Below are positions 11,779-63,539 of a stretch of 64,000 bases of DNA, one piece after another. The notes beneath the pieces are model-generated. The model searched no databases. It was not told the DNA's origin and saw only the letters and a program-made list of their open reading frames with translations. Origin of the DNA: Diplonema japonicum (Eukaryota > Protista > Euglenozoa: Diplonemea). The first letter of the stretch is position 1. Every line of letters begins with the position of its first letter. The stretch covers positions 434,001-498,000 of the forward strand of contig OZ025699.1 of the NCBI GenBank assembly GCA_964019335.1, given 5' to 3'. The position numbers were made by a program, and so were the translations under genes.

Positions 11779-11919
11779 TTTCATTCCAGTGATTTTAGCT
11801 ATTTTTTTTTTCTTGCTTATTTCTTCTCGTTGATGTCAGGTTCGGTTTCGGTTTCACTGTGTCTTATTGCTGAAGCACACACGCAGCAGAGACCCATCTT
11901 CTGTGGTTTCGTGTCCCTT

Positions 11920-12025
11920 GGAGTCCAGAAATGGAACATCCGTTAAAATTGGATCGATACAGAGAAGATTAGCATGGTCCCTGCGCAAGGATGACACGCA
12001 TTAATCGAGAAAGTATCACCTTTTT
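11920..12025 (+). ncRNA. U6: U6 spliceosomal snRNA
   Basis: ACAGAGA box (11959-11965), AGATTAGCATGG, CCCTGCGCAAGGATGACACGC internal stem-loop, 5' TCCA-GAAA-TGGA hairpin and a T9 terminator at 12021-12029. The 5' end is approximate. Confidence 0.95.
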
Positions 12026-12169
12026 TTTTCCCGAAAATGCTGCCAAGGGCTTCGGTTCAATTTTAGCTGACTCAATCTTTCTTCGTTGTCGTTGCAAATC
12101 GTTGCAAAACATGGCCAAGCGTCGGAAGGATGAAAGTTTTTCATTTGCTTGGTTGTGTTTCAGGGGGGC

Positions 12170-12312
12170 ATCCTTGCGCTCGGGAAGAAGCCATAGGCAA
12201 TGACCTAACAGGGACGCCATGGTGAGATTGCTGGTTGAAAACTACCCAATTACCCGCTTGTCAGCACTACGGTGCTGTTCAAGCAATTTCTCAAGCTGCT
12301 TCTGAGCAGTTC
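12170..12312 (+). ncRNA. U4: U4 spliceosomal snRNA
   Basis: 5' ATCCTTGCGC..GGGA is complementary to the adjacent U6 (stem II). K-turn-like 5' stem-loop (AATGA..GA), TGCTGGTTGAAAACT (stem I), 3' hairpin GCTTG..CAGCAC-TACG-GTGCTG..CAAGC, Sm-like AATTTCT (12285), terminal hairpin, then T7. Confidence 0.88.
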
Positions 12313-17995: not shown

Positions 17996-18200
17996 CATCT
18001 TCGCCACCCACTCCACGCACGACAAGCTGATGGAACTGAAAGCCGCTTACAAGCGAGACCGCATCACACGACTCCGCAAGACGCTCAAGGCCTCGATTGG
18101 AACGAAAGCAATGCTCCAGAAGGGGTGTATAAATAGATAGCCCCCCCCAACCCACCCAAGGGCGGCCCTCCATGAGGGGGTTTGTCCTGCACTTTGAGTT
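17996..18200 (+). mobile_element. 5'-truncated copy of the non-LTR retrotransposon 3' end
   Basis: Near-identical to 58803-59007 (one substitution seen by eye). TTATTCC occurs on both sides as a candidate target-site duplication. Confidence 0.93.
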
Positions 18201-19362
18201 ATTCCCCTTTTTCTTCTGTAAGAAGTGTTGGGCATGTGAGGCAGACGATCACCTTGGTTATCATGCTCAGCTACATTCTTTCCCCCCCCTTTTTTTTTCT
18301 CTCCCCTTTTCTTTTTCTCCCCCCCCCCTTATTTTTTTAGCTTAAAGACTGTTATTGCAGGCCTTTCGTTTTTTAAGATGAGCAACTCCTCCCTAAGCGA
18401 GTTGCTTTGAAACTGGGTGTCAACACCCTGACATGAGGACCTTTAAAAATTCTAGGGCCGGAGTTGCTGCAAGGGATTGACAACCGCTAGCCTCCAGGCC
18501 CTTGCAGTAAGCAACTCGTGAAGAACATTGTTGGCTTACCGGGGACATTATCTGACCCATGAACACAAACAGCGCAATGAGGAATGCTGTGCACCCCCCT
18601 TTTTTTATTCCATGTCTCTCACTTCTTGTTACAAGTCCCTGTTGCCACCATGGAGCCTGCACAGTCACAAAAATAGTGGCCCCAAAAAAAAGAAACAAAA
18701 TATGGTCAAGAAAAAAAAAAAAAAAAAAAAACACTAAACCAGGCCACTAAAAAACCTTTTGGGAATCGTGTTTTTTTTGACAAAATAGTAGTGAAATAAT
18801 GGACCATCTTATTTATCCCACTTGTCACACACTAACGTTTAGCAAGAAGACTTCCCCCCCCTTTTTCTTTTCTCTTCTCCCTCCTCCTCTTCCCGTGGTT
18901 TTGACCTTTTATTTCCTTGTCTTCCTCGCGGCTTTTAAACACATTACAGGAAGAAAGAAACAAATGTCGCGCTGTGGAGCCTGAGAAGAACAAGCAAGAG
19001 GAGAGGCTCGGGCATGGCCTTGTACTGAAAGGTGCAAGGGCATTCGTGGCGGGATCTGCTCTGTCACGAGCCGAACACATGCCATTTGGTAATCAAGCCC
19101 AAGACGCCTTCACGGCGACCGGTGGTGGGGTGTCCTCGTGCAACTCTCAGAGATTCTAGACGGGTAGGTATTGTTGACGATATACAAGTTGAAACTGGGC
19201 CAGCCGGCGCTGGCTGAAATGGACTGTACAAAGGCATGGACCTCGTGATTGGCGTTGAAATAAGGATTTTGAAATCGACCTTTCAGCATGTTGCCGAAGT
19301 GAAAATTCGAATAAAACAGTGCTCGGTGTCGGTGCGTTCTTGCGGGAGCCCCCCCCCCCCCA

Positions 19363-19970: not shown

Positions 19971-20130
19971 TAACTCATATATATATTTTTTTCTTTTTTT
20001 TTTTTCCTTGGTCTTCTTTCGTTTCTTTTTTGATATGCATTTTGTTGTCTCTTCAACTTAGCTACTTATATACACCACAGTTAATCAACACCACTTTTTG
20101 AAAAAAAGAAGAAAAAAACAAAAGAAAACG

Positions 20131-41094: not shown

Positions 41095-42513
41095 GAAGGG
41101 TGTTTGAAAAAAAAAAAAAGAGAGAGAATAGTAGACTCGTACCCCCTCCCATTTTTACTGAATTCCGATCTAATCAAAAAGGAGTTCTAAATGCTTTATT
41201 TTTTTTCTCTTCTCTTCTACAAGAGAAAAAAAAAAAAGAAATTATTTTTTTTATTATGCCCCTTGTGCTTTTGTGCCGAGCAAAAAGTTTTTTTTTTTTT
41301 TTCTACTTTTACTCGTGCGAAACAACAAATGCACACATGTCATAATAAGAATTTTTTTTTTCTTCCTTTTTCTCTCTCTCACTTTTTCTTTCTTTTATTT
41401 CCCTTCCCTTCTATTACAACCAAAAAAAAAAAAGGGGGTTTCTCAGAGCTCTTCGTAGCTGGACCCCTTCTATCTTATACTTCAAAAAATACCCCCTTCC
41501 CTTCCCTCCCCCATTCCAATTATTTTTTTTGTTTCTTTACCTTCTTTTCCCCCCCTTTTCTTTTGTTACGACTTCTGCCTTTTGTTGGCTGCTCTAGACA
41601 GGTATTGAGGCAAAAGCCGCCATCTTTCTTAGAATGAAGCCCTCAGTTCCACAGCCCACTCTGTGGGCTGTGAGGAAAAGCCATCGTTCTTCTTTTATGT
41701 GCGGTGCCGACTGGCCAGGAGCTTGGCAGCTGTTTTTGCTTGAGTCGTTCCTTTCCTTTCTTTTTTTTTTTTTTTTTTTCTTTCTCTTTTTCTTTTTTAA
41801 ATTCCATTTTTAAAACCTAAACAGTGCGCATCTCCCTTGCATACTGAAAATTTTATCGAAAAATCTTAAAATCTCATATACATCAGCTGCTACGGCAGCT
41901 GAAGGGCTCTCTATTCCCCGCACCCCGCCCCGCCCCACCCCTCTTATTGCTCCCATTGAAAATTTCCCAGCTGGTTGCAGTTGTTTTCCCGCTTTTTTTT
42001 TTTTTTTTTTTAAATTTTCTTTTTTTTTTTTTTTTCTGGTTTCTTTCTGTTCTTTTATATTTATAAATATATATAGATAGATATATATATTTCTTTTTCT
42101 TCTTTTTATTTTCTCTTTTTTTTTTTTTTTTTTTTTTGCAAGAAAAGGATATGTTGGCTGGATATCTACATTCCCAATTCCCCCTTTTTTTTTCCCCCCA
42201 CTGCCTTGCTCGAGAACATTCGAGCAGATGTAGAAAAGGTAGAGAGAAACCGAAAGAAGAAGACGACAATGGCAACAAAAAAAAAAGGAAAAAAAAAAAA
42301 AGGAAAAAAAAAGCGGCTTTATTTTTTCTCGGCAAAATGAATAGTAAAACAACTGTGCATCTCCCCCCTCCCCCCCCCCCCCCCTCCCTCCCCTTTTCTT
42401 CTTCCTCTTTTTCTTGTCCCTCCCTCCCTCCTTCCTTTCTTTTTTTTCCCCCCCCTCTCTTTCTCTCCCCGTTTTACCGCACAGTTCCCACCCCCCCCAA
42501 AAAAAATAAAAAC

Positions 42514-44212: not shown

Positions 44213-44292
44213 AACCAACAAAAAAAAAATCAACCAGGGTTTTTTTATTTTTATTTCTTTATTCCTGCTTGAGCGATATCTCTCTGACTTTT

Positions 44293-44451
44293 TTATTTAT
44301 TTTATTTTATTTTATTTTATTTTATTTTATTTTATTTTATTTTATTTTATTTTATTTTATTTTATTTTATTTTATTTTATTTTATTTTATTTTATTTTAT
44401 TTTATTTTATTTTATTTTATTTTATTTTATTTTATTTTATTTTATTTTATT
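44293..44451. repeat. (TTTTA)n microsatellite
   Basis: About 30 tandem pentamers. Confidence 0.95.
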
Positions 44452-44552: not shown

Positions 44553-47500
44553 ATGACTGACACGCCCCCCCGGGCTTCCAAAATGCTCGGCAACGAAGAA
44601 GGCGGACATGGCGTGAAAGTGGGGGAATTCGAAAGGCCGAACCTCATGGCTGCGGTGTACTTCGTGATGGTGAAGAACGCGCGGCTGAAGATGCGGTCGT
44701 GGGTGGGGATGCTGGTGGAGACCCTCCTTCCCGCCCTGTTCATGACAATGCTTGTTCCCGCCTACGTCGCTGCAGGTTTTCAAAACCACGGGAACAGGGA
44801 ATTCCTGGACAACCACATGAACCCCAACGATTACTTCCGTCCCTGGATGTGCACGCGGAACGGGCAGACGGTCCCTTCAGGGTACTCCCTCTGCACGGAC
44901 AGTCCGCCTGAGCATCATTGCCTTGGAAACCTGTGTTTGAACTCATCTTTATCTGACAACGGTAAGGTCAGTGAAGTGCTGCAGCCGTGGTATCAAGTCA
45001 CAAATTCCACGTCCATTCCCAGCTTCGATGTTGTAGCCCTGTGGAGGAACTACGCAATGACGAAATCCCTTCCTGGAGAGAGCGAGGAGGGGGTCAATAT
45101 GGCGAATGCGTTGAGAACAGGGATCAACATCAGCGTGCACGGGGATGGTGCGGCACGCTTCGACGACTGGTTCACGCAGAACACGTACACGTACCAGTTC
45201 GTGAGGACGAACCAGTTTGCAACGGAGAAGGAAGCGACCGACTACGCGTCCACACGTTCCGGGTCTAGCAAGATCTGGGCTGTCATTGTCCTCACAGGAA
45301 ACACCGAGATCTCCATCAGAATGAACCGTACCTCCACGCCCACTGAGGTGGAGTCTTCTGACACCAACGGTCTTAGCGGAAGTTTCCGCACCTACCTTGG
45401 CGGGGGATTCCTCACCATCCAGACACTCTACACTCGCAACATCACAGGGTCAACTGTTGCAGACGAGCCTCTCCTGGTCCCCATGCCCGTGCAGGGGTAC
45501 CGCTCCAACAGTTTTCTGAAGAGTGCTGGAGACTTCCTCCCGATGATCATGACGCTCGCCTTCCTCTTCCCCCTCTCGCAGATCGTGTCCGCCATCGTGA
45601 AGGAGAAGGAGTCGCGCATCCGAGAGGCGATGCTCATCATGGGGCTGCCCTCCGCCGCCTTCAAGCTCTCCTGGCTCCTTACTACGATGCTTCAAATGAC
45701 AATCACGGGCCTCCTCCTCTCTATTGTGGTGGTAGCCTCCTTCTTGAGCGACGTGAACTACAGCATCGTCCTCATCGTGTGCCTGAGCTACTGCCTGTCT
45801 CTGGCGGCAGCTGGAATCCTGATGTCTGTGTTCTTCTCGAAGGCGTCGCTCGCGAGTCTTGTGAGCCCGATGATCTACCTGATGACGGCGATCCCTTCGT
45901 TCATCTTGACAAATCCGGCTTTGACTACAAAGCGGGGTTTGTCTTGCTTCAACACGTACGCCTTTTCGCAGGCCTTGGACATCCTCTTCAAGGCATCAGG
46001 CAAGGGCGACCCGATGACCTGGGGCAACGCCGGGAACGGTTCGTACTCCCTGCTGACGGCCCTGGGCTTCATGTGGGGCGACATGGTGGTCTACCTCCTG
46101 CTCGCGGCGTGGCTGGACCAGGTGCTGCCCAGCGAGTGGGGGGCGAAGAAGCCCTTCTACTACTTCTGCTGGCCGCCCTTGTGGTTCAAGTCGGAGGGGA
46201 CTGAAGACGAAGATGATATTGAAGACGGGATGATGAACCGGGACAACCTGGAGGCAATCACGGACCAGAATCTCCTCCAAAAGGAGAGGATCAAGGTGAA
46301 GAACCTTCGGAAGGAGTTCCACATGGACGGCAACACGAGAGTCGCTGTGAACAACGTGAACCTGTCGCTGTACGAGGGGCAGATCCTGGCGCTGCTGGGG
46401 CACAACGGAGCGGGGAAGACGACCCTCATCAACATGCTGACGGGGATGCTGCCTGTGACCTCGGGGGATGCCTCCGTGTTCAACAACTCGGTGCGGTACA
46501 ACATGGAGGCGGTGAGGAAGGACATCGGGCTGTGTCCGCAGCACAACATCTTGTGGGACAACATGACGTGCGCGGAGCACCTCCGCTACTACGGACGGGT
46601 GAAGGGGGTGCCCTCGGCGGAGTTGGAAGAGCACGTGGACGACATCCTGAGGAAGGTGGAGCTGGACGACAAGAAGGACGTGTACTCGATGGCGCTGTCT
46701 GGCGGGATGAAGCGGAAGCTCAGCGTGGGGATCTCCTTGATGGGGGGCCCGAAGTTCCTGATCCTCGACGAGCCGACTGCCGGGATGGACGTGCAGGCAA
46801 GGAGGGCGGTGTGGGATCTGCTGAAGACGGTGCGGGCGGGGCGCACCATCCTGCTGACGACGCACTTCATGGACGAGGCGGACCTCTTGGGGGACTCGAT
46901 CGCCATCCTGCACGACGGGCGCGTGAACTGCTGGGGGTCGTCGTTCTTCCTGAAGCAGAAGCTGGGGGTGGGCTACAACCTCACCATGGAGCTGGCGCCG
47001 GGGACGAACGTCTCAACCATCACCAACACCATCAAGGAGGAGGTGGGCCCGCTGAGGGGAGATGGTGACGAGCAAAACATCGAGCTGCTGTCGTCGGCCG
47101 GGTCGGAGCTTGCATACAGGATTCCCATGTGGGGGCTTCCGAACTTCGCGAGCCTGTTCGAACAGCTTGAGGTGAGGGGCAAGGAGCTGGGGGTCAACAC
47201 CTTCGGGATAAGCGTGACGACCTTGGAGGAGATCTTCATCAAGATCGCACACGACAACACGGAGCCGACGAACACGACGCCCGACGTGCAGCCCTCGGGC
47301 ACAGGGCAGCAGCATCTCCTGAAAAACATCGACATCGACCCGGCCGACAAGATGCGGGGAGCGGAGCTCTACAGCTCGCAGTGGACGGGCCTCTTCTACA
47401 AGAGGTTCATCTACAGCAAGCGCGACAAGTGCACCGTGTGCTTCCAACTCGTGCTGCCTGTAGTGGTGGTGCTGTTCACGCTTGCTTTGGTGACGACTTC

Positions 47501-49628
47501 TGTGGGTGAGCTGGGTGAGATCAGCCTGTGGGGGTATGAGGAGGAATCCATCTTCCCCGTGTCGCCTGTGAACAGCCCGTACGCAGTGGGAGGGTTGATC
47601 GGTGGCATGACCCCAATGCCTGCTGACTACGGGACAGCGGCGAACATGAGCAACTACCTGCTGCACAGGGACGGGAGAAACGTGAAGTGCTGGCAGGCTC
47701 TGTTCCAAGAGACGGCCGGTTTAACAACCCCACGAACAGCCTTCTTCAACTCAAGTGAACCACACAGCATTCCTATCATGTTGAGCGGGTACGCTTCGCT
47801 GCTTTACAGAGAGACCCAGAATGCGTCCGGTGGGATCTACGTGACGAACAGCCCCCTCCCTTACAGCGACTACTACAAAGACAGGGAGAAGTCCATGATG
47901 GCTGTGATGATCGCGATCAACATCATCCTCCCCTTCTGCTTCATCCCCGCCAACTACGTCGCCTTCCTTGTGAGGGAGCGCGTCAGCAAGTCGAAGCACG
48001 TGCAGATCGTCTCGGGGGTGCGCCTCAGCGCCTACTGGATGTCCAACTTCTGCTGGGACCTGGTTTCCTTCATCGTCTCCACCTTCCTCTCCATCCTGAT
48101 ATTCCTCCTGTTCAACAGGGAAGAGTTCGTCGGGAGCTCGGAGGCCTTCATCGCCGTCTTGTTGCTGTTCTTCTTCTACGGGGTGACCGCGATCTTCGCC
48201 TCGTACTTTGCATCCTTCTACTTCGAGAGCGCCACGACGGGGCAGAACACGGTGCTGCTCGGGAACTACTTCTCGGGGTTCGCGCTGACCATCACAATCG
48301 CGATTCTGCAGCTACTCAGCTCAACGAAGGACGTGGCGAAGGTGCTGCGGTTCATCTTCCGCGTGGTCCCGGCCTTCTGCCTCGGGGACGGGGTCCTGGC
48401 CTTGGCACAGCTGCCGGCGAACCGCAGAATGGGAGCGACCTCCGACACGCCGCTGTCGATGGACGTGGTGGGGTGGGACATCGTGTTCATGTGCATCATG
48501 TTCCCCCTGTACGCGTTTGGGGCGATGTCGCACGACTTCCCGGAGATCTGGTACAAGCTCGGGCTGCGGACGCCTCCCAACACGGACGGGGTGGCGGACG
48601 AAAGGGCCGCCATCATGGACGACGACGTCGCAGCGGAGAAGGCAGCGGTGATGGCGAAGCGGGACGGGGACGTGGTGGAGGTGCGCGGGGTGCGAAAGGT
48701 GTACCCGGCCCGCGGGAACCAGCCTCCGAAGGTCGCGGTGCGCGAGGTGACGTTCGGTGTGAAGACGGACGAGATCTTCGCCTTCTTGGGGACGAACGGG
48801 GCGGGGAAGACGAGCACCATCTCCGTTCTGGCGGGGGACTACGCCCCGACGGCGGGGACGGCCTCGATCAAGGGCCACGACGTAGTGACGGACGCTGCGG
48901 AGGCGAAGAGGGAGCTTGGGTACTGCCCGCAGTTCGACGCGCTGCTGGACATGCTGACGCCGAGGGAGCACATCGAGCTGTACGCCTCGCTTCGCGGGGT
49001 CCCGACAAGCATAAGGGGCGAGATGGCGAACAGCCTGATCCAGGTGCTGGGGCTGCAGGAGCACGAGAACACGGTCTGCAAGAAGCTGTCGGGAGGGAAC
49101 AAGAGGAAGACGAGCATCGCGATCTCCCTGATCGGGGGCCCGTCGTGCATCCTGCTGGACGAGCCGACCGCGGGGATGGACCCTGTGGCGAGGAGGGGGA
49201 TGTGGTCCGCCCTGCAAGTCATCGGGAAGGGGAGGTGCGTGGTCCTCACGACCCACCACTTGGAGGAGGTGGAGGCCCTGGCCCACCGCACGGCGATCAT
49301 GGTGGACGGTGGCCTGCAGTGCTTGGGGACGCTGTCGCATTTGAAGAACAAGTTCGGCGGGGCCTACGAGGTGCAGGTGAAGGTGGCCCCCGAAGGCGAG
49401 GCAACGCTGCAGAACTTCTTCAAGACCACCTTCCCCTCCTCCGACCTTGTGGAGCAGACCAACCACAGGCTCACCTACCAGCTCCCCGCAGGGCAGAGGC
49501 TCTCAGAGATGTTCTCCATCATCCAGTCCTCCAGGGACAAGCTAGGCATCGTGGACTACTCCATCAGCGAGACCTCCCTCGAACAGGTCTTCATTGCTAT
49601 TTGCAAGAAGTATGTTTCTGAGTCATGA
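44553..49628 (+). CDS. ABCA: Full-size ABC transporter, subfamily A
   Basis: Two TMD-NBD halves. GHNGAGKTT / LSGGMKRKL / LDEPTAG and GTNGAGKTS / LSGGNKRK / LDEPTAG; VKEKE and VRERVSK motifs; TTLEEIF and TSLEQVF. Confidence 0.96.
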   Translation: MTDTPPRASKMLGNEEGGHGVKVGEFERPNLMAAVYFVMVKNARLKMRSWVGMLVETLLPALFMTMLVPAYVAAGFQNHGNREFLDNHMNPNDYFRPWMCTRNGQTVPSGYSLCTDSPPEHHCLGNLCLNSSLSDNGKVSEVLQPWYQVTNSTSIPSFDVVALWRNYAMTKSLPGESEEGVNMANALRTGINISVHGDGAARFDDWFTQNTYTYQFVRTNQFATEKEATDYASTRSGSSKIWAVIVLTGNTEISIRMNRTSTPTEVESSDTNGLSGSFRTYLGGGFLTIQTLYTRNITGSTVADEPLLVPMPVQGYRSNSFLKSAGDFLPMIMTLAFLFPLSQIVSAIVKEKESRIREAMLIMGLPSAAFKLSWLLTTMLQMTITGLLLSIVVVASFLSDVNYSIVLIVCLSYCLSLAAAGILMSVFFSKASLASLVSPMIYLMTAIPSFILTNPALTTKRGLSCFNTYAFSQALDILFKASGKGDPMTWGNAGNGSYSLLTALGFMWGDMVVYLLLAAWLDQVLPSEWGAKKPFYYFCWPPLWFKSEGTEDEDDIEDGMMNRDNLEAITDQNLLQKERIKVKNLRKEFHMDGNTRVAVNNVNLSLYEGQILALLGHNGAGKTTLINMLTGMLPVTSGDASVFNNSVRYNMEAVRKDIGLCPQHNILWDNMTCAEHLRYYGRVKGVPSAELEEHVDDILRKVELDDKKDVYSMALSGGMKRKLSVGISLMGGPKFLILDEPTAGMDVQARRAVWDLLKTVRAGRTILLTTHFMDEADLLGDSIAILHDGRVNCWGSSFFLKQKLGVGYNLTMELAPGTNVSTITNTIKEEVGPLRGDGDEQNIELLSSAGSELAYRIPMWGLPNFASLFEQLEVRGKELGVNTFGISVTTLEEIFIKIAHDNTEPTNTTPDVQPSGTGQQHLLKNIDIDPADKMRGAELYSSQWTGLFYKRFIYSKRDKCTVCFQLVLPVVVVLFTLALVTTSVGELGEISLWGYEEESIFPVSPVNSPYAVGGLIGGMTPMPADYGTAANMSNYLLHRDGRNVKCWQALFQETAGLTTPRTAFFNSSEPHSIPIMLSGYASLLYRETQNASGGIYVTNSPLPYSDYYKDREKSMMAVMIAINIILPFCFIPANYVAFLVRERVSKSKHVQIVSGVRLSAYWMSNFCWDLVSFIVSTFLSILIFLLFNREEFVGSSEAFIAVLLLFFFYGVTAIFASYFASFYFESATTGQNTVLLGNYFSGFALTITIAILQLLSSTKDVAKVLRFIFRVVPAFCLGDGVLALAQLPANRRMGATSDTPLSMDVVGWDIVFMCIMFPLYAFGAMSHDFPEIWYKLGLRTPPNTDGVADERAAIMDDDVAAEKAAVMAKRDGDVVEVRGVRKVYPARGNQPPKVAVREVTFGVKTDEIFAFLGTNGAGKTSTISVLAGDYAPTAGTASIKGHDVVTDAAEAKRELGYCPQFDALLDMLTPREHIELYASLRGVPTSIRGEMANSLIQVLGLQEHENTVCKKLSGGNKRKTSIAISLIGGPSCILLDEPTAGMDPVARRGMWSALQVIGKGRCVVLTTHHLEEVEALAHRTAIMVDGGLQCLGTLSHLKNKFGGAYEVQVKVAPEGEATLQNFFKTTFPSSDLVEQTNHRLTYQLPAGQRLSEMFSIIQSSRDKLGIVDYSISETSLEQVFIAICKKYVSES

Positions 49629-51408: not shown

Positions 51409-51439
<31 letters not shown>

Positions 51440-51449
51440 ACAGATTTAT

Positions 51450-51501
51450 GTATTTCGTTTTTCTTTGTCAAAAAAAAAAAAAAAAAAAAAATTATTATCA
51501 G
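51450..51501 (+). other. Candidate 52-nt poly(A)-filled intron in the 5' UTR of the U-box gene
   Basis: GTATTT...(A)~22 TTATTATCAG, the same architecture as the kinase introns. No reading frame is available to validate it. Confidence 0.4.
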
Positions 51502-52258: not shown

Positions 52259-52297
52259 AACCAACGATTCTAAAGCTACAGTTTCTGTACTTTATTG
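52259..52297 (+). other. SL: Complete 39-nt spliced-leader (mini-exon) sequence
   Basis: AACCAACGATTCTAAAGCTACAGTTTCTGTACTTTATTG has the euglenozoan SL length and the conserved CAGTTTCTGTACTTTATTG 3' half. The AACCAACGAT start is the diplonemid type as I recall it. Confidence 0.93.
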
Positions 52298-52504
52298 GTG
52301 TCCGACCGTGCCAATAAAGTTCACACAGCAACGGTTTGAAAAGAAAATACAAATATTGGAAGTTGAAGCGCGACACAGATCAGCAACGTAAAGGAGAAGA
52401 GAAGAGAAGAGAAGAGAAGAAAAATCGAGTCATATCAGATCATATCAGATCATATCAGATCACAGCAAACACATTGACAATCTAAGCTACCGCGTCAGTC
52501 TAAG

Positions 52505-54737
52505 ATGGACGTTCACAAAGCTTTGAAGGGGTACGGGATGACAGCCCGCGGGAAGGGGTACCGGATTGGAAACGGAAACTCCTTCTACGGAGTGGTCGGA
52601 GAGAAGACGGGAAAGAAGGGGAGCGACGTTAGGCGCCGCATGATACAAGAGCTGCGAGGAAGCGAGGAGTACCGGGCGAGTGTCATCGGAGACTACGACC
52701 TGTACTGCTCCCAGCACGCCAGGGAGGGGACCGCCGCGGACCCGGTTACCATCCAAGCCACCGCCCGCGCACTGAAGACCGACATCCACCTGATTACGGC
52801 CGACGGCGGCGCCCTCATCGTCTCCCCTATCGTGGGAGAGTCCAAGTCCAAGAAGCAGCCCATCCACGTCGCCTTCGACGGCCGGGCATACCTCAACGCC
52901 ACGGAGCCGTTCAACGTGAACGTGCTGAAGAAAGCTATGCAGCAGTTCAAGCTGCCACGGGTCGGGATTCCAACCTCAGACGGAGAGGCGAAGGCATGGA
53001 GGGGACCGAACAGCAAGCCACCACGGAAGGAACCGCAGGCAAAGAAATGCTGGCTCCTCGAGCAGGGACAGTTCGACCTACCCTTCATAGAGTGGGAAGA
53101 GCTGGTGGCAGGAAAAGATGGCATAGCCATCGCGACCGAGGTCAACGTGGAGGAGGCAGAAAAGATGTCCTGGGACGGGAACAAGGCAGTCCTCCTCAAC
53201 GCAACGGCAAGGGTCGATACGAACACGACGTCGTGCTCAAGGCGGCTGGAGAGTACTCGAACAGGACAATGTTCTTGCACGTACTGAGCGGAAAGATCTC
53301 GCGCTCTCAAAAAAACAAAAACACGGTGGGTATTGACCTGGCCGCGATGTACACGCGGGTAGCTTTCGTCGTCTCGAAGACGCACACCCCAGCCCAGACA
53401 TGGGAGAGGGTGACCTCCGAACCCCGGAAGCTGGTCCAGGAGATGCTGGGCTGTAGAACGATCCACAGGATCGACAAATACGTGGATGGACCGGCCCCAA
53501 GGGTTGACGTGCTCGTCACGATCGCAACCGAGAACCGCCGCCGCCTCGTAGGTGCATCCGGGAAGATGGGGGTCTTCGTCAAGCCGAAGGACGTGGAGAA
53601 GTCCCCTGTCGCCTGGCTCCCGAAGGAGATCACTCTGGAAGAGGCACTCGAGCTGGCGGAGACTGAGAAGCAGGGGTTAGCGCTGCGCGAATCCGACGGC
53701 CGTCTCGGGGTGAGGACATCGGAGGAGAGGAAAACCACGCTCCTCGACAAGGTATTAGGCGAGGAGGAGCGACAACGCGGGCAGCATGGGGAGCCCAGGT
53801 GGCGTTTGTCGGGACTGTACGGGCAGTGCGGAGCCGAACACGTTGAGGCGATACTCGAGGCGATTAAGTGGGAGGCCACGGCGGATGGTGCAACAGCATG
53901 AGGTGCTGGTACATCCGAGGGGGCGAACCCCCAACCACGTCACTGAAGATCACGTCCCCAACTGGGCGGGTCCTCAACTGCAGGATAGCTCCCGACGTTA
54001 GAAACCGACCCGCCAAAAAGACACCGCCAGCTCAGTCCTGGGGAAGGCCGAAAACGGGGACCACAAACAACGCGGGCAAGTCGTACCTCGGAGCAGTGAC
54101 GGGGTCCTCTCAACCAGACCACAAACCACCAGCTTCAGGAAAGAAGGTTGCCCCTGCGGGTAAAGCCGCCCCACCGAAGTCCGGTAAGTCGCCCACAACA
54201 TCGAAGAAAGCCGATCCCCCGGCCTTTGAGGACCGCCTCACAGCAATCGAAAACGCACTTCGTAAACTAGCAGGGGAACCGGTCAGCGACGTCAAGCCGC
54301 CGGCTGAGGTGGTCAGTCTACGGAGGGAGAACGCGGAGCTACGGGAGGAGGTCCGGCAGATGCACATCCAGATGGCCGCGCTCACCGAGCAAATTAAGAG
54401 ACTCACGGAAGCGACGCTCTCGAAGCCCGTCCCCGGGAACCGGGCCCCGATGATGCGCCCTGCTGCCGGGGAGGAGATGATGGACGACTCCGAAGATGAC
54501 TTGGGTCCCCCCCCAACTGACGATGACACCGACATCGACCTGGACGAGGGCCCCGCCGACATTGACGACTGCCTGGGCAAGGGCATCTGCCACGTCTACA
54601 ACGGGACATATCAATGCTGGAAGGGTGTATGCCACTACTGCGGCGGGAACATCACAAAGAGCAACCCAGCACAGACCTGCATATTACCAGACTGCAAAAG
54701 GGTAAAATGCCGCGGGTGCGAACAATGCGAACAATGA
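52505..54737 (+). pseudogene. Retrotransposon ORF1 (OTU-like N-terminus, coiled coil, Cys-rich C-terminus), two frameshifts
   Basis: Three overlapping ORFs (52505-53287, 52996-53901, 53868-54737) join by frameshifts near 53215 and 53880. Coiled coil LRRENAELREEV; terminal CHYC..C..C..C..C cluster. Confidence 0.75.
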
Positions 54738-54830
54738 CTCCATGAGGGCTCCCCCCAAACCCACCCCCCAAACCCATTCCCTCCGCCCCGTTCCCATCCT
54801 TCCAAATACAATCCGATACGCTTATCTGAC

Positions 54831-57800
54831 ATGAAATTTGAACGTCTCACCGAACAGGGTATCGAACCCCACCCCGGACCAGAGCCAGAACACGAGAAAT
54901 TCACCATTTTCACACACAACGGCTCATCACTTAACAACAGGCTGAGCGAGTACTCCACCGTCCTCCCGGACGCATTCTGCATCCAGGAGACAGCCCTCAC
55001 GGCTCAGACGCAGCTGGAAATCGAACACGTGCTGAGAGACGATGACTGGGGCAAACGATACGCCAGATTCTGGAGCAAGCCACAGCCAGGCAGGGAGTCC
55101 AGTGGTGTCACATCTCTGACGATAGCGAAAGCAAACGGTGGCTTCACCTGATCAACGTCTACTGCCACTCGGGCCAGGACCAAGCCAAGACGAAATACCG
55201 TGAAGAGCTTCTCCACTACATCCTTTGCCGTCTTAAGTTCGAACTGGGAGACGTGCCTGTGGCCGTGGTGGGCGATTTCAACACGGACGAAGTACGATCC
55301 CCCACGTTAAGGAAAGCTATACAGACAGACTGGGTAGACGCCGCTGCGTTCTGTGCAAGAAGGGATGGTGTGCAGGCGGAGGACACGTTCGTTAGGACCA
55401 ACTGCAGCACGAGGATTGACAGGGTCCTGCTGAATAACATCGCGGCCCAAGGTCTCGAACATTGCGGAGTAAGCGATATGATCACCGGGTCGGACCACCG
55501 ATGCTTGTCGGTGACACTCAACATCCCAGCTTTTCGTCAAGAAGTCCTGAGGTACACCATCCCACAGGAGATACCGAAGACCAAGAAGGCGCCTGGCGAG
55601 GTGGCGAAGGCACTGATGCAGAAGTCGAGGTACCGGGAGTTCATAGCAGCACAGGAGCCCACCGAAGCTTTCTCGGAGATATCAGACCTCGCAGAGGAGT
55701 ACCTATTACATGGGTACAAGGGGCCGACGCGCAGCGTGTACACCGGGAGAGGCAAAGTACGGGAACCTACGAAATCGGAGCTAAGTGCGAGGTCGGCGGA
55801 GTCGGCGGTCGGAGCGGCATCGAACAGACAACAAAGACTGGAAAAGCTGAAGCACAAGATCCGCAGTGCGCAACAGCAAATGCTAAGGCTTTATGAAAAC
55901 GGACACTGCGGTCCGCTGCCGGTAGAGTTACGGAACGTCCTCAGAAATATTGCGACACTAGGAGAAGAACTGAAGGTTGACAACTGCCAGGTGGACGCGA
56001 CAGGGGGTATCGACGGCATCAGGGAGGAGCTGGACATAGCAGAGGACTTCGCTCAGGGAATGCTATCAGAGCTACTCCAATACCGCAAGAGAACGCAGAC
56101 GAAGGCCTACGAACGCTCAGTCCGTGCTGACTTTGGGAAAGAACGCAAGCACATCACAGCCTGGGTCAGAGACCGCCCAAACCAGAGAACGGACGTGGTT
56201 GAGGTAGCAGACGGAGGGGTGACGGCGAACCTACAGGAAATGGACAAGGTGATGCGGAACGCGTGGTCGGGCGTCTTCTGTGCGCGAACACCCGAGGAAG
56301 AGCCACAGTATGAGCGGTTTGCACAACGTTACGGGGACCTGATCAAGAAAGCCCCAATGGCACGGACTCCCATCACAGCAGAACAGCTGAGGGAAGTGAT
56401 CAGGAAGAAGCCGGAGAAAGGAGCATGTGGCGTGGACGGTTGGCGGATGAGTGAACTGAAGCGTCTCCCAACGAGCATCCTGAAGGCTTTCGCAGACCTC
56501 TTCAACCTGATCGAGGAAACAGGCCAGTGGCCGAGACAGATCACGACAGCACTGGTGTCCCTGATTCCGAAGGGTGAGGGGTCAGCACCACTGAATCATC
56601 GTCCCATCACAGTGACCAGCACCATCTACCGCTTGTGGGCGTGTACGAGGCTGAAGGGTGTCTTGACTGGCAAGAACGCTGGATCACGCCGAGACAGCAC
56701 GGGTTTCGACCCAAACACAGTACGACAACTGCCCTCATGGAGTTATGTACCAAGCTGGAACTAGCTCTGGTGGAAGGAGAACCGCTGGAAGGACTAGCCC
56801 TAGACTTTCGGAAATGCTTCGATCTAGTGCCACAACGGCTGTCTCTCGACCTCATGGACGCCCTGGGGATGGACCAATCCATAGGGAGAGCACTCCAAGG
56901 GATGTACACCCAAATCACAAGGAGGTTCAAGTACCCCATAGGAGTGGGAGAAACATTTGAGACAACGAACGGAATTCTCCAAGGATGCCCCCTGTCAGTC
57001 ATCGTCCCCTGTCAGTCATCGCCCTGTCAGTCATCGCCCTGTCAGTCATCGCCCTGTTGTCCATCATGGTGCGGGCAGTCGAGCAAGTCGCGCCAGACGC
57101 CGAAGTGCTAGCCTACGCTGACGACGCATACCTGCTGGCAAAGCTGCGTGGCTCACTACAAGCTGCGGTCAATGGGACATTGGAGTTCTGCGACCTGACG
57201 GGGATGGAAATCAAGAGAAGACTGTTGGTTTCGGCACTGCTGAAGATTTCAAGTCGAAAGTCATAGGAAACCGAACGGAGATGAGGAAAGGCTTGGAGGT
57301 CGCGGTACCCTACAAGACGGTGACAGACCTCTGCGGACTGGGGGTGAAGATCAACAGACGCAGGACAGGAACGACGTGGAACAAACCGACCACGGGGGCG
57401 CTTGGCTCGCTGGACCGACTGGGGGGCACAAGGATTGCTTTCGAAACCAAAGCACACTTGGTCAGCACGACGGTCCTGCCATCTTGCCTATACAGTGGGC
57501 CGTTCTCCCCTCCATGTGATGAGGCACTCAAGAAGCTAACGACGAAGATCACTTGTAACCTGTGGGGCCCTCATCACCGTGGACGGTCGCCCACCGCGGT
57601 AAACACAGTCCTGCTGAAGGGGCACACCAATGACCCCCTTTCCTACGTAATGTACCACTCCCTGAAGGTAGTATCCGGAGCACTCGATGACAGTCGGCTA
57701 CGGCAGAGATGCATACAGATCGCTGCGGGGTATGACGCGGGTTCCATCCCGATGGGGCCGGTTGGCAACCTGGTCTGCCGGTGGCTTCCCCGAATAGGAT

Positions 57801-58947
57801 GGAGTTGGGCGCAGCTACTAGGTTGCAACACATCTTGGGCCGAACGCGGACACATCTTTAGAGAGGTGGTGAGGAAGGCCCGAAGTAGGACGCTGGCGGT
57901 CGAGAGGAGCACGATAAGCGGGATAGAGCCGGGGGCGGACCCCAAGACGAACCGATTATGGAGGACGGCCAAGGACCCGCTCATGTCCTACAGCCTGAGA
58001 CGAGTGATCGCAGGAGGGGTTCCCTACCTAAACCCGCACGCAAATGCGAAGCGAAAGAGCGTCCCACTGGCGCCTGAAGGTGACGACAACGGTGACGACG
58101 AGGAGAACATGGGCCAGGCACCAACGACGGAGGTATCGCACACGCAAGGATTCAGATGCGACCTGTGCAAGTCTCCACACCCGGACACGGTGACCTTACT
58201 CCGCCATCAGCTGTATGAGTGCGCCTGTGCACAAGAGGAACTGGCACTAGACGGAATGGAGCCGTTGCGCAACAGATCAGGATGGCCCCTATGTCTGGAG
58301 CTGCACGCGATACTGCCGAGGGGGCATGTCTTCGCACACCTGGAGAAGCTGCAGCAGTACATGGCTGTGGTGGTCGGGAAACGGGATGTGGAGCTCATGC
58401 AAATAGACAACGCCAGCACACAGCCGCTGCCGTGGGTACGCAATGTGGAGGGAAGGAGATGCCTCGTGCCAACGGCGGGGGAGCTCGAAGGAGTGGGAGG
58501 AATCGTCGCAGAATTCTTGAACCCGCTGCTGCAGTGGTTGTCACAGCTACGATGGGTGAAGGAGGACACCAGCTCTGAAGTGTCAGCGGTGGAATTGGCC
58601 ATCGACTTCGAATGGACGACAGGCAAGTTACTGGGAGGTCTGCTGGAAGATAGGGCTCGCAAGATCATAGCACTGATAAGAAAGCTGAACGCGGCATGCA
58701 GGGCACGGAAGAAGCCACGCCCCTTCCCAGCAGATGAACAGAAGAGAGTGAAGTCCCTCATCGCAATAGGTGGGAAGACGGCTATGGGTTCGCCAGGAGG
58801 CCCATCTTCGCCACCCACTCCACGCACGACAAGCTGATGGAACTGAAAGCCGCTTACAAGCGAGACCGCATCACACGACTCCGCAAGACGCTCAAGGCCT
58901 CGATTGGAACGAAAGCAATGCTCCAGAAGGGGAGTATAAATAGATAG
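54831..58947 (+). pseudogene. Retrotransposon ORF2: 2A-like peptide, AP endonuclease, reverse transcriptase, CCHC-like knuckle; multiple frameshifts
   Basis: APE motifs THNG, CIQET, LINVY, VVGDFN, RIDRV, SDH. RT motifs GVDGW, LIPKG, RPITV, QHGFRP, LDFRKCFD, GILQGCPLS, YADD. CDLC..H..C knuckle. Frameshifts near 55140, 56660, 57005, 57250 and 58790. Confidence 0.92.
56990..57051. repeat. Four tandem copies of CCCTGTCAGTCATCG within the RT
   Basis: 15-bp unit with 2 extra nt after the first copy, causing a frameshift just after QGCPLS. Confidence 0.9.
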
Positions 58948-59002
58948 CCCCCCCCAACCCACCCAAGGGCGGCCCTCCATGAGGGGGTTTGTCCTGCACT
59001 TT

Positions 59003-59045
<43 letters not shown>

Positions 59046-59738
59046 CCCCTAGCCCTCGCTTTCTCAATCGATCAAAAAAAAAGTTTTTTTTTTTGATGTG
59101 ATTGATTTTTTTTTTTTAATTATTCGTTCTCTCATTTTTTTTTTACACCCCCTCTTTTTGCTTTTTTTTGAGACTTAAGAAAGAAGAAAAGGGGGGGGGG
59201 GGGGGGGTGAAGAGGATGGGGGGAATTGTGCAAATCTGCTCTCCCCCTGCAAAAAAAAAGAAGAAAAAAAAAACGAGCGAAAAAAAAATTGTTTTCTCTC
59301 ATTTTTACTTTTTTTTTCTCCCCTTTTATTTCCCCTTCCTTCCCCCTTCTTTTACTTTTTTTTGAGACTTAAGAAAGAAGAAGGGCAAGGAGGGGATGGG
59401 GAGAGAACCGGAACATATGCTCAAACAAAAAAAAAAAAAAAAAAAAAAAAACAAAAAAAACATATCTACCATATCTGCAAAACTTCTGCTGCCTCTCTAA
59501 ATCCCCCACTGTGCTGCAGTGAATTTCCCTTCCCCCCCCACCTTTTTTTTCCCCATGCCAAAAAAAAAACGTTACTTTTATTTTTCCTCCCCCCTCCCCC
59601 ATTCGTTTTCCCCCCAGCACCAACACCAAACAGGGTTTTCTTTTGCTTCTTTTTTTTTTCTTCTTTTTTTTTTTTCTTTGGGGGAGGAGAGGGGATTTTT
59701 TTTTTGTCCCCTCTTTGGGTTTAAAAAAAAAAAAAAAA

Positions 59739-62008
59739 ATGGGGCTCACCGACGAGCAACAGGACCTGATGGAGGAGAGCTGGAAGATGGTAAACAGCGC
59801 GGGACTCGACCAGCTGGGCTTCAGGCACTACAAGATCCTGGTGCAGATGGGCGGCGACGAAATCAGAACCATGTTTATGTACACCCATCTGGACAGACAG
59901 CAGAAAATGCTTATATCAACAATGAAATGGATGATGTTCAACGTGAATAACTCGGAAGGGCTGAGAAGGCTAGCCCTATACCACGCGCACCTAAAGGTCA
60001 CCGAAAGACTTTTCGGACTATTTGGAAAAGCCTTCATCGAGGCCATGAAGGAGACGGTGGGTCCTCAATTCGACCTTAAGTACCAAACAGCTTGGGCTAC
60101 TGCTTATCAACTCATCGCCGACTCTTTCGTGAAATTTTTAAAAGTGTATGGGGAACAAGTAACCCGCGCTGCGAAGGAAGAAGAAGAAGTCGCAAAACGA
60201 AATACCTACAACGAGCTACGAAACTATTTTAGAGACGAACGGGCAGAGAATTTTCTCGCCTTGTCGGACAAAGAGGGTTCCGTGTACGTCTCTCAGTACG
60301 AGCGGGAGCAGCTCCCCACATCAGTGGAACAACACGACAGGACCATGTTTCGAAAAAGGTGGTTGGTTCTAAGAGGCAGATACCTTTACATCCAGAAGAA
60401 AGAGAACCAACCTCCTCAAAACATTCTCGACTTGGGCTATTGTTCACTTGAGGACACCTCTACCCCCGGTGGAAGGCTTCCCTCCCCATCTCCCTTTTCA
60501 TTCGCGCTAACCGACGATACCGGCATGGTCACGTATTTCCTACTATCTGGTGACGATGAAAAAGAAGTCTGGGGGCAGATTCTACTCCAGGTCCTCTCAA
60601 GATTTTATTACTTAAGAGAGGCTGTTCCAAGATCAACTGGTGTGTTGTCCATCACCGTGTTAGGCGAAGAACTCATACCGAAAGAATTTTGTGAGGATGA
60701 TTTTGAAATGCTTGTGCTTATAGGTAAAGGGACCTTCGGCAAGGTGTACAAGGTGAAGGAGGTTGCCACAGGGAAGATCTATGCGGTAAAGGTGTTGAAG
60801 AAATCCGCATTGAAGCGCGAGTCGCAGATCACAGACCTGAGAAACGAGAAGGGGATCTTGCTAAACATCTCGCACCCGTTCATCGTGAAGCTGCATGCTA
60901 CCTTCCAGTCGAAAGACCGGCTCTTCTTACTATTCACCTTCCTCAGCGGAGGCGAGTTGTTCTTCCACATCCAACAGTCAGAGTCGTATTTCTCGGTATT
61001 TTTTTTTGGGGGGGGGACCAATGTTTCCAACCTCCCTGTGGTGGTTCCTGGTAATTGTGGTTTGGAGAAACACAAGCGAAAGGGAAACTCTCGTTCTAAA
61101 GCCGTACACGTGGGGAAACCTGAACGGGGGTGGAGAGCCCACCCTACGCGTGGCGCCAGTTAGCATCGCCCTCAACGGAGAGTCCCTTATCCCATTACAT
61201 CGAACAAGGAGGTGGCTTCACCAGGTCAGGCAAGTAGCCTCCCCGCGGCATCGTGCCAGTGAAGCTAGCCTCCCACAACTCTCTAGTTGGTGTTTAATTG
61301 CTTCTGTGGCCCCTCTCCCTATTTCAATTTCCAAGCTTTCTTTACCTCTCCACTTTTACTTTCTACGGGACCACAGGGGACTTGGGAGGCTTCGGGGCGA
61401 AGTTTCACAAGGGTGGCCGCTGTGTCACATACTGCATGGCACCACTAAAATCGAGACAACTTTTTTTTTTTTTTAAAGTCGATGGTGACCTTTAACGTTG
61501 ATCCTGACCTGCTGAGGGTGTGCCTGCTGAGGGTGTGCCTGCTGAGGGTGTGTGCCTGCTGAGGGTGTGTGCCTGCGTCCTTTTGGTGAACTCTTCCACG
61601 TACACCTTGTCAAGCTCCACACGGCCTCCTTCGCCTAAGTGCAGCACCACCATACCAGCATCCGTCAGCACGGAAGTCCCTAGGGATTCTGACTTTATCG
61701 TTTCCCGTCGCATCTTCTTTTCTTGGATCACCATCTTATAATTGTAAAAACCCCCTTTTTTTTTTTTTTTTTTGCTTACGCTCCATATTCGCTAATGTGA
61801 CCCGGCCTATGTCCTAAAAGGATTATAAATAAAGATAATTTGTTTCCCCCTCCCCCCCCCTCCCCCAAATAAAAAACCTTCAGGAAGCCAAGTCTCGTTT
61901 CTACATCGCCGAGACCGCGCTGGCGGTGTCGTACCTCCATGAGAACAACATTGTGCATCGTGATTTGAAGGCTGAGAACCTGGTGTTGAGCGCAGAGGGG
62001 TATGATTG

Positions 62009-62043
<35 letters not shown>

Positions 62044-62444
62044 CAGCCACGTGTGTTTGACCGATTTTGGCTTCGCAAAGACCATCGAGAAGGACGCGGT
62101 TCCAAACCAAACCTGTGGAACTCTAGCGTATATGGCCCCAGAGATCTTCTCGAAATCAGCAATGGGGTACGGACAGGAGGTGGACTGGTGGTCGTTGGGG
62201 GTCCTCTTGTTCAATATGCTAACCCTGTGCTACCCTTTCCTGAGGGCCACCACCATCGAGACTGTGACAGCCATCACCAGCGAACCGCTGAAGTTTCCAG
62301 AACAGCCCATTCTCAGCGAGGATGCCGTGGACTTGCTCATCCGATTGTTGACAAAACGGCCCAAAGACAGATTGACGGATATGAACGATATGAAGAACCA
62401 CCCGTGGTTCAGAGGCTTCGATTGGGAGGCGTGTTTGAGGTTAG

Positions 62445-62481
<37 letters not shown>

Positions 62482-62881
62482 ACAGGAAAGAACTTGCCCC
62501 ACCATTTGTGCCGATCTCGACAGGGCGGAACACGAAGTACTTCAGACCGTGTGAGAAGGGAACATCTTTGGCGAGGTGTGTTTCAATAAAAAACAAAAAA
62601 AAAAAAACAAAAAAAAAAAAAAAAAAAAATACAGCATTGCGCAAATAGAGGAACAGATGGAGTTGTCATCTTTTTTCGACGTTCACCAAACATATTTCAC
62701 GCAGCACGTGGTGGCTGCAGAGAAGGGGACGAGAGATGCCTTAAATTCTAAGATGGACATTCAGGGCCTGATGACCAGAGGAGAGGAGCTGAAGCGAAGA
62801 CAGGAGAGCGGCGAGGCAGAGGGTACAGAGACCATTGATAAGACGACCGGCGATAAAGTAACAGACAAAGAAAAAGAGTGA
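59739..62881 (+). CDS. Globin-PH-AGC (Akt/PKB-like) protein kinase; exons 59739-60995, 61884-61999, 62047-62439, 62486-62575, 62635-62881
   Basis: Globin (LMEESWKMV, RTMF, RQQKML, LALYH), PH (FRKRWLVL..EKEVW) and kinase (GKGTFG, AVK, HRDLK, DFG, CGTLAYMAPE, DWWSLG, PPFVP tail). Four GT-AG introns restore one continuous frame. Confidence 0.9.
60996..61883 (+). other. Intron 1 of the kinase gene (888 nt, contains GC-rich inserted material)
   Basis: GTATTT...AAATAAAAAACCTTCAG joins SYFS to EAKSRFYIAE in frame. Confidence 0.85.
61509..61577. repeat. Four tandem copies of CCTGCTGAGGGTGTG(TG)
   Basis: Visible 15-17-bp tandem inside intron 1. Confidence 0.85.
62000..62046 (+). other. Intron 2, 47 nt, poly(A)-filled
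   Basis: GTATGATTG(A)32CCTCAG; splicing gives AEG-HVCLTDFG. Confidence 0.92.
62440..62485 (+). other. Intron 3, 46 nt, poly(A)-filled
   Basis: GTTAG(A)36CACAG; splicing gives FDWEACLR-KELAPPFVP. Confidence 0.92.
62576..62634 (+). other. Intron 4, 59 nt, A-rich
   Basis: GTGTGTTTCAAT(A-rich)TACAG; restores the frame into the final exon. Confidence 0.82.
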
Positions 62882-63539
62882 TTTCTTTTCTTTTTTTTTT
62901 TTCTTCTTCTTTTTTTTTTAGCCCATAAAATGAAATGATAGTGTTTTTTTTTTGGGGGGGATGAGGGGGGGGGTTCTTTTTTTAATTCTTTTCTCTTTTA
63001 CATTTTGCGAGGGGGGGAGTAGGGGGGGGGGGGGGGGGGGGAGGGGGACAAAGAAAGAAAGATAAAGGGTGGGAGAAAAAAAGGGGGGGGGTACTATAGA
63101 TCTCATAAAAAAAATGAAAAAAAAGGGGACAAAAGCTTTTTCTTCCCTGCCAAAATTAAGAGATTTACAGTAACGTCTTTTGTGTTTTTTTTTTCTTTTT
63201 TTTTTCTTCTTCTTTTTTTTGGTGGGCCGTTGCTAACCACTTTGTTTCCTATCATGCTGATTGAATGTTGAGTTGGGCCAGGGATAAAAGGAAAAATAAA
63301 AAGAATAAGAGAAGAAAAAAAAGGGGAAAAAAAAAAAGAAAAGAAACGAAAAAGAAGGAAAAAAAGAAACTGTAAGTTTTTTGATTATTATTTCCTCATA
63401 AAAATATTTTCTTCTGCTTTGCTTCTCAAAAGTAGTTGGTGGCAGCGTAATGAGCCATTTCAATTTTTTTAAAAGTAAAATTCCGAAATTTCTTTTTTTT
63501 TAAACAAATAATTTCGGGAATAATACTTAAGAGGTTTAC

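What the first reader, a model, noticed from the sequence alone, without database searches (positions are those of the whole stretch)
62000..62634. Miniature GT-AG introns filled with poly(A) instead of a polypyrimidine tract
Seen: three consecutive 46-59-nt introns are essentially GT-N(3-10)-(A)30+-N(2-3)CAG, and each splice restores conserved AGC-kinase motifs. Intron 1 also ends AAATAAAAAACCTTCAG, and a similar unit sits at 51450-51501. Putative trans-splice acceptors upstream of genes (e.g. 1717, 42484, 44504) follow pyrimidine-rich tracts. Known: U2AF65 normally needs a poly(Y) tract and U2 a branch motif, and neither is visible here. Inference: A-tracts may mark cis acceptors so they are not hijacked by SL trans-splicing, implying a different 3' splice-site recognition code.
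Basis: partly seen in the sequence, partly recalled or inferred. Interest (0 to 1): 0.78.

Follow-up and report, generated by a model that had tools for sequence, protein, structure and literature searches.

The report
Diplonemid introns filled with A-runs
Three tiny introns in a marine flagellate's kinase gene are real and are made mostly of adenines instead of the usual pyrimidine stretch; the organism is likely Diplonema japonicum, where this trait is already published, and the A-run likely serves as a passive spacer rather than a new signal.

Summary
The introns are real. Removing 60996-61883, 62000-62046, 62440-62485 and 62576-62634 gives a 700-aa globin-PH-AGC kinase identical to a transcript-derived protein. 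One public contig skips 888, 47 and 46+59 bases. The genome is a Diplonemidae flagellate, 77% to D. ambulator in this kinase, and likely D. japonicum. The cis-versus-trans code is unproven. For it: U-poor tracts are poor SL acceptors in T. brucei, and SL hijacking of introns occurs in Leishmania. Against a positive A code: intron 1 has a C-rich tract; relatives appear to fill the same positions with (CACAC)n or CA-rich sequence; and the 51450-51501 unit more likely lies upstream of an SL acceptor than forms a confirmed intron (indirect). Best reading: ordinary major-spliceosome short introns with a U-poor, G-free slippage filler. The scan's notes hold no diplonemid case, only unchecked A-rich acceptors in Bonamia.

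The parts
59739..62881 (+). Globin-PH-AGC protein kinase gene, 5 coding exons, 700 aa
   Evidence: In-silico splice equals P0123; Pfam Globin, PH (below cutoff), Pkinase
60996..61883 (+). Intron 1, 888 nt, GTATTT...CCTTCAG, phase 0; C-rich then short A-rich 3' end; holds a very high-copy repeat (about 60987-61480)
   Evidence: X5 record 20 joins 60994 to 61883; position shared with P0127-P0129 and D. ambulator
62000..62046 (+). Intron 2, 47 nt, GTATG donor, A32, CCTCAG acceptor, phase 2
   Evidence: 47 bases skipped in X5 record 20; junction fixed by P0123; position shared with P0128/P0129
62440..62485 (+). Intron 3, 46 nt, GTTAG donor, A36, CACAG acceptor, phase 2
   Evidence: With intron 4, 105 bases skipped; junction fixed by P0123
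62576..62634 (+). Intron 4, 59 nt, GTGTG donor, interrupted A tract (A13, A21), TACAG acceptor, phase 2
   Evidence: the two alternative GT donors break the frame
51410..51501 (+). A28-CCACAG (51443) and GT...A22-TTATTATCAG (51450-51501) upstream of a U-box gene; likely includes the SL acceptor (51501 or 51443); intron status unproven
   Evidence: 4 of 4 runs have a U-box contig with 22-24 unplaced letters before 51504; arithmetic; letters not shown
52259..52297 (+). Spliced-leader-like 39-mer at the head of a LINE copy; marks the organism as SL trans-splicing
   Evidence: 37 of 39 letters as in row 'Euglenozoa 14' of PMC3795323 (compared by eye)
11913..12026 (+). U6 snRNA (major spliceosome), ACAGAGA box intact
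   Evidence: Rfam RF00026, 88.9 bits
12170..12308 (+). U4 snRNA (major spliceosome)
   Evidence: Rfam RF00015, 71.3 bits

Best explanation
These are real, very short GT-AG introns that are cut out of the mRNA, likely by the ordinary major spliceosome, with the A-run likely acting as a passive, unstructured, U-poor spacer rather than a read signal. Shown: the ends, the removal, the lack of structure, and no internal AG after position 5. Inferred: in a 46-59-nt intron U1 at the GT and U2AF35 or proximity at the only available CAG define the intron across its length, so a U2AF65-bound pyrimidine tract is dispensable, and any A in the run can serve as branch point, as in trypanosomes, which have no branch consensus. 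Inferred: the filler is whatever simple repeat the lineage's slippage produces (A-run here, CACAC in D. ambulator, CA-rich in another relative). It is kept free of G (no cryptic AG/GT) and likely poor in U, because a U-tract before AG is the euglenozoan signal for SL trans-splicing and upstream polyadenylation. The constraint would be avoidance of U, not recognition of A.
For: Exact splice equals P0123; spliced contig. U4 and U6 of the major type in the window. Small introns fold to 0.0, 0.0 and -0.9 kcal/mol. The 30 nt before the 4 cis CAGs hold 0 G and 5, 1, 0, 1 T. Intron 1 splices with a C-rich tract. D. ambulator isoforms P0130/P0132 read through an HTTPH repeat, which among units of 1-6 nt only CACAC rotations encode, and rejoin the EAKSRF exon in 1 of 12 shifts tested; P0128/P0129 read through a 72-nt intron 1 whose fixed letters are 18 C, 10 A, 11 G, 3 T and which ends in CAR. 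All 48 homopolymer runs >=12 nt lie in non-coding DNA, 19 A and 23 T. T. brucei: (U)20 best, (C)17 inactive, purines harmful, branch at any A (PMC9639853 passages). SL joined to exon 2 or inside introns in kinetoplastids (PMC11613528 passages).
Against: Thakur et al. call the A enrichment 'significant conservation' across about 10,000 D. japonicum introns, which a positive signal would also give. In the window, A>=20 runs precede YAG on the sense strand more often than on the antisense strand. The U-avoidance step rests on unverified trans acceptors picked for being pyrimidine-rich, so p=0.014 is circular. E. gracilis uses one tract type for cis and trans. The relatives' intron content is back-inferred from proteins, not read as DNA. 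Branch points and U2AF use were not tested.
Confidence: 0.6

Rival explanations
1. One reading: the A-tract is positively read by an altered U2AF65, SF1 or a poly(A)-binding protein and marks cis acceptors, while SL acceptors use pyrimidine tracts.
For: 3 of 4 cis acceptors have 27-29 A in 30 nt; 6 candidate trans acceptors have 2-9 A. Genome-wide A enrichment in D. japonicum. SL hijacking occurs in relatives.
Against: Intron 1 is C-rich. Orthologous introns in relatives use other fillers. U-box contigs best fit SL joining behind an A tract (indirect). A-runs also sit in 5' UTRs and intergenic DNA. U2AF1/2 are reported present.
Confidence: 0.17
2. Fully neutral: the splicing machinery ignores the middle of short introns, and a strand-biased slippage process fills it with A; trans-splicing plays no part.
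For: Homopolymers pervade all non-coding DNA here (48 runs >=12 nt in 12,648 non-coding bases). A-rich stretches precede several ATGs (13-16 A in 20 nt for 3 of 9 genes). E. gracilis shows no cis/trans tract difference.
Against: T runs are as common as A runs on the sense strand (23 vs 19), yet 3 of 3 small introns hold A and none T, and the published logo is A-dominated.
Confidence: 0.18
3. The introns are recent insertions of poly(A)-tailed or introner-type elements, and the A-run is the remnant of a tail.
For: Retroelements are present (LINE at 52259-59005; repeat in intron 1).
Against: Positions of introns 1 and 2 are shared with relatives at 54-55% protein identity. The three introns share no sequence beyond the A-run. 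The LINE here ends in T, not A, on this strand.
Confidence: 0.04
4. The A-runs are assembly artefacts or are retained in mRNA.
For: Long homopolymers are error-prone; exact run lengths were not verified because the tool masks them.
Against: A spliced contig and a transcript-derived protein lack them. Seven contig ends from 3 runs of 2 studies overhang 32-35 letters into the introns, as expected for 21-25 A plus flank. The trait is published from a short-read assembly.
Confidence: 0.01

Closest known systems
Diplonema japonicum canonical introns with poly(A) in place of the pyrimidine tract (Thakur et al. 2025, PMC12621601; parts 1-5 of 8 read, figures and supplements not seen)
   Same: GT-AG ends, CAG acceptor, GTATG as commonest donor, short length (median 41 nt), A as dominant base before the acceptor, rare YTRAY (13.9%), major snRNAs.
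   Different: None found. The paper gives a logo of 20 nt and does not compare SL acceptors or map lariats (0 hits for 'spliced leader' and 'lariat'). Species identity of the window is inferred, not shown.
Trypanosome SL trans-splice acceptors (PMC9639853, passages)
   Same: No branch consensus; branching at an available A; same phylum.
   Different: They need a U-containing tract; purines harm them. The introns here have none.
Human short introns with truncated tracts spliced through SPF45/RBM17 instead of U2AF (PMC8363638, abstract)
   Same: About 56-nt introns spliced without a normal U2AF65 tract.
   Different: They keep a short pyrimidine tract; no A-run; use of SPF45 in diplonemids is untested.
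Euglenid and hemistasiid nonconventional introns (PMC12621601; PMC11170887 passages)
   Same: Same phylum; short; unusual 3' ends.
   Different: Those lack GT-AG and have paired ends; these are GT-AG and unstructured.

Membership tests
Major (U2-type) spliceosomal introns | GT...AG termini | tested here: met
   4 of 4 introns, junctions fixed by P0123
Major (U2-type) spliceosomal introns | Removed from mature mRNA | tested here: met
   X5 record 20; P0123
Major (U2-type) spliceosomal introns | Major snRNAs in the genome | tested here: met
   U4 and U6 in the window; U1, U2, U5 not in the window and no genome held
Major (U2-type) spliceosomal introns | Polypyrimidine tract and YTRAY branch motif (typical, not universal) | tested here: not met
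   3-10% pyrimidine in introns 2-4, 70% (C-rich) in intron 1; no YTRAY in any
Major (U2-type) spliceosomal introns | Lariat formation and spliceosome dependence | not testable with these tools
   Only contigs were available
D. japonicum poly(A)-tract introns | Host is a member of Diplonemidae | tested here: met
   Pyrophosphatase groups with P. papillatum and L. lanifica, 95/84; kinase 77% to D. ambulator
D. japonicum poly(A)-tract introns | Host species is D. japonicum | tested here: inconclusive
   Not D. ambulator, P. papillatum, L. lanifica, R. humris, R. euleeides or A. motanka (50-77% identity); inferred from closeness to D. ambulator and the matching trait; D. aggregatum or an undescribed Diplonema not excluded
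D. japonicum poly(A)-tract introns | Short, CAG-ending, A-dominated before the acceptor | tested here: met
   3 of 4 introns A-dominated and 46-59 nt; 4 of 4 end CAG; 1 of 4 starts GTATG
Euglenozoan nonconventional introns | Non-GT-AG ends | tested here: not met
Euglenozoan nonconventional introns | Base-paired intron ends | tested here: not met
   0.0, 0.0, -0.9 kcal/mol

The most novel reading that the evidence does not exclude
This Diplonema runs two acceptor codes in one nucleus: its cis spliceosome positively reads an A-tract (through a re-specified U2AF65/SF1 or a poly(A)-binding protein), while SL trans-splicing reads U-tracts, which is how an intron-rich polycistronic genome keeps thousands of introns from being hijacked.
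Probability: 0.17. Interest if true: 0.75.

Novelty: already known. Interest (0 to 1): 0.3.

Why it matters
The trait is in print, so the finding itself adds a clean worked example. What stays open is how a spliceosome with U2AF handles a 45-nt intron of nearly pure A, and how diplonemids, which trans-splice essentially every mRNA yet keep many introns, separate the two reactions. The comparison made here (A-run, CACAC and CA-rich fillers at orthologous positions) points to U avoidance rather than an A code. It can be tested with public genome and RNA data for D. japonicum and with minigenes in P. papillatum.

Tried and rejected
No whole genome is held, so no genome-wide intron, SL-acceptor, U2 or U2AF analysis. 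No run is on record as RNA: 'no RNA holder listed'; X5 is taken as RNA only because its contig lacks the introns. Joint tables did not list the kinase junctions (repeat zones masked, high-copy repeats fill the top rows), so piece arithmetic was used; only 33 of about 19,600 pieces were shown. The kinase 5' end (66 letters before 59750 in X5 record 18) fits no single acceptor; left open. Metagenome scan gave 1 locus from 148 stretches, a generic kinase at 49%, not examined. Supplements of PMC12621601 could not be read, so its D. japonicum U4/U6 sequences and logos could not be compared; the splicing section of the P. papillatum supplement was too large to read and may bear on cis versus SL acceptors. 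Searches for another report of the trait or a cis-versus-trans comparison in diplonemids surfaced only PMC12621601 in the listings; 30 of 96 and 25 of 38 hits were listed, and most subscription journals are not held. Rejected: nonconventional paired-end introns, alternative donors in intron 4. The scan's notes on this genome had no match.

Full report
Observation. The sequence is as described. The gene starts at 59739 and has four GT-AG introns: 60996-61883 (888 nt), 62000-62046 (47), 62440-62485 (46) and 62576-62634 (59). Introns 2-4 are 74%, 85% and 75% A. Introns 2 and 3 hold unbroken A32 and A36; intron 4 is interrupted (A13, A21). None has YTRAY, and they fold to 0.0, 0.0 and -0.9 kcal/mol. 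Retaining any one intron stops the frame early.

Splicing is shown in two ways. A protein search with residues 1-315 returned 7 proteins; the top one, P0123, is a 700-aa transcript-assembly protein with 0 differences from the four-intron splice. Of 4 public runs laid on 59050-63500, one (X5) has a 984-nt contig whose pieces skip 888, 47 and 105 = 46+59 bases. The other three have contigs that run into the introns and stop 32-35 letters inside the masked zones (7 ends). That is what 21-25 A plus flank would give, but the letters were not shown and exact run lengths are unverified. Run types are not on record, and P0123 and X5 may not be independent.

Chance. A runs of 20 or more are followed by YAG within 12 nt in 6 of 9 cases on the sense strand and 1 of 10 on the antisense strand (p=0.02). 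Homopolymers are general here: all 48 runs of 12 or more (19 A, 23 T, 4 C, 2 G) lie in the 12,648 non-coding bases.

Organism. The window's pyrophosphatase is 71% identical to Diplonema (Paradiplonema) papillatum and groups with it and Lacrimia lanifica (95/84). The kinase is 77% to D. ambulator and 60.5% to P. papillatum and Rhynchopus euleeides. The genes I annotated all lie on one strand, major-type U6 and U4 are present, and 52259-52297 matches a published euglenozoan spliced leader in 37 of 39 letters (that this is the diplonemid leader is recalled). The organism is therefore a Diplonemidae flagellate near D. ambulator. D. japonicum is inferred (about 90%), not shown.

What is known. Thakur et al. 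2025 (PMC12621601; parts 1-5 of 8 read; supplements unavailable) analysed 10,131 D. japonicum introns: 98.33% GT-AG, median 41 nt, GTATG donors, CAG acceptors, YTRAY in 13.9%. [quoted passage not shown] The text has no occurrence of 'spliced leader' or 'lariat', so the cis-versus-trans question is not addressed there. Searches listed no other report.

Testing the interpretation. In its favour, SL joining to exon 2 or inside introns is seen in kinetoplastids (PMC11613528 passages). In T. brucei (U)20 is the best trans tract, (C)17 is inactive, purines harm, and branching uses any nearby A (PMC9639853 passages). In the window the four cis acceptors have 5, 1, 0 and 1 T in 30 nt against 12, 11, 14, 15, 11 and 6 for six candidate SL acceptors (p=0.014). 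Those six were picked by eye from 10 gene starts for being pyrimidine-rich, so the test is circular.

Against A as the signal there are four points. First, intron 1 splices with 16 C, 5 T and 9 A before its CAG. Second, relatives appear to use other fillers at the same positions. Two D. ambulator isoforms read into an HTTPH repeat that, among units of 1-6 nt, only CACAC rotations encode, and rejoin the exon after intron 1 in 1 of 12 shifts tested. Two unnamed gene calls (P0128, P0129; identical over this part, so one observation) read through a 72-nt intron 1 rich in C and A and enter an intron at position 2. This is back-inferred from proteins. Third, the 51450-51501 unit: in 4 of 4 runs the U-box contig begins with 22-24 unplaced letters before 51504. 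An unspliced or A28-containing form should overhang about 32-35 letters, as the intron-containing contigs do. The lengths fit SL joining at 51501 (20-22 leader letters) or at 51443 after removal of the unit (14-16). Both acceptors lie directly behind A22 or A28. The letters were not shown, and T28 and T20 tracts lie further upstream, so this is a hint only. Fourth, E. gracilis uses the same C-rich tract for introns and outrons (PMC11170887 passages).

Mechanism. Shown: GT-AG ends, removal, no structure, no G in the 30 nt before any of the four acceptors. Inferred: the major spliceosome defines these introns across their short length from the GT and the only available CAG; the tract is a spacer that offers many branch adenines; its letters follow the lineage's slippage bias; and U-runs are likely selected against because they signal trans-splicing and polyadenylation. 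A U2AF65-independent route for about 56-nt introns has a precedent in human SPF45 (PMC8363638, abstract), untested here. I give this 0.6, a positive A code 0.17, pure neutrality 0.18, insertion remnants 0.04 and artefact 0.01.

Verdict. Real and odd, but already published for the likely species; interest 0.3. The additions are a junction-level example, the filler turnover across Diplonemidae, and a defined test of U avoidance against A recognition. The scan's notes held no diplonemid case; two unchecked notes describe A-rich acceptors in Bonamia.

Noticed in passing
window 52259-59005: LINE-like element (weak endonuclease and reverse transcriptase Pfam hits, frames broken) between T31 and T38, headed by a full spliced-leader-like 39-mer; likely a retrocopy of a trans-spliced element RNA. 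Partial 3' copies at 17996-18203 and 1297-1346.
   Followed up: partly
window 59739-62881: Globin-PH-AGC kinase fusion; only 7 proteins matched residues 1-315 at E<=1e-8 within 230-734 aa, and the three looked up are diplonemid. Possibly an oxygen- or NO-sensing kinase (inference).
   Followed up: partly
window 60987-61480: Intron 1 holds a repeat with summed contig depth of about 260,000-1,040,000 against about 500 in exons in run X2; no second copy in the window.
   Followed up: no
window 11913-12308: U6 and U4 snRNA genes lie side by side inside the gene cluster.
   Followed up: partly
P0130, P0132 (D. ambulator): Isoforms diverge at residue 381 into an intron absent from the window's gene and look like assembly chimeras joined across (CACAC)n-filled introns.
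   Followed up: partly
window 20131-41094: Uninterrupted 6987-aa ORF; no Pfam hit in the first 5000 residues.
   Followed up: no
window 1728-9494: 2588-aa ORF with an ADP-ribosyltransferase domain (PF01129) at residues 681-805.
   Followed up: no
window 44553-49628: ABCA transporter gene; contig depth about 1000 over parts against about 30 for the U-box gene, with variant letters, suggests an expanded family.
   Followed up: no
window 20111-20130, 42494-42513, 59719-59738: A-rich stretches directly before start codons (13-16 A in 20 nt for 3 of 9 genes).
   Followed up: partly
window about 44290-44450: (TTTTA)n microsatellite upstream of the ABCA gene's candidate acceptor.
   Followed up: no
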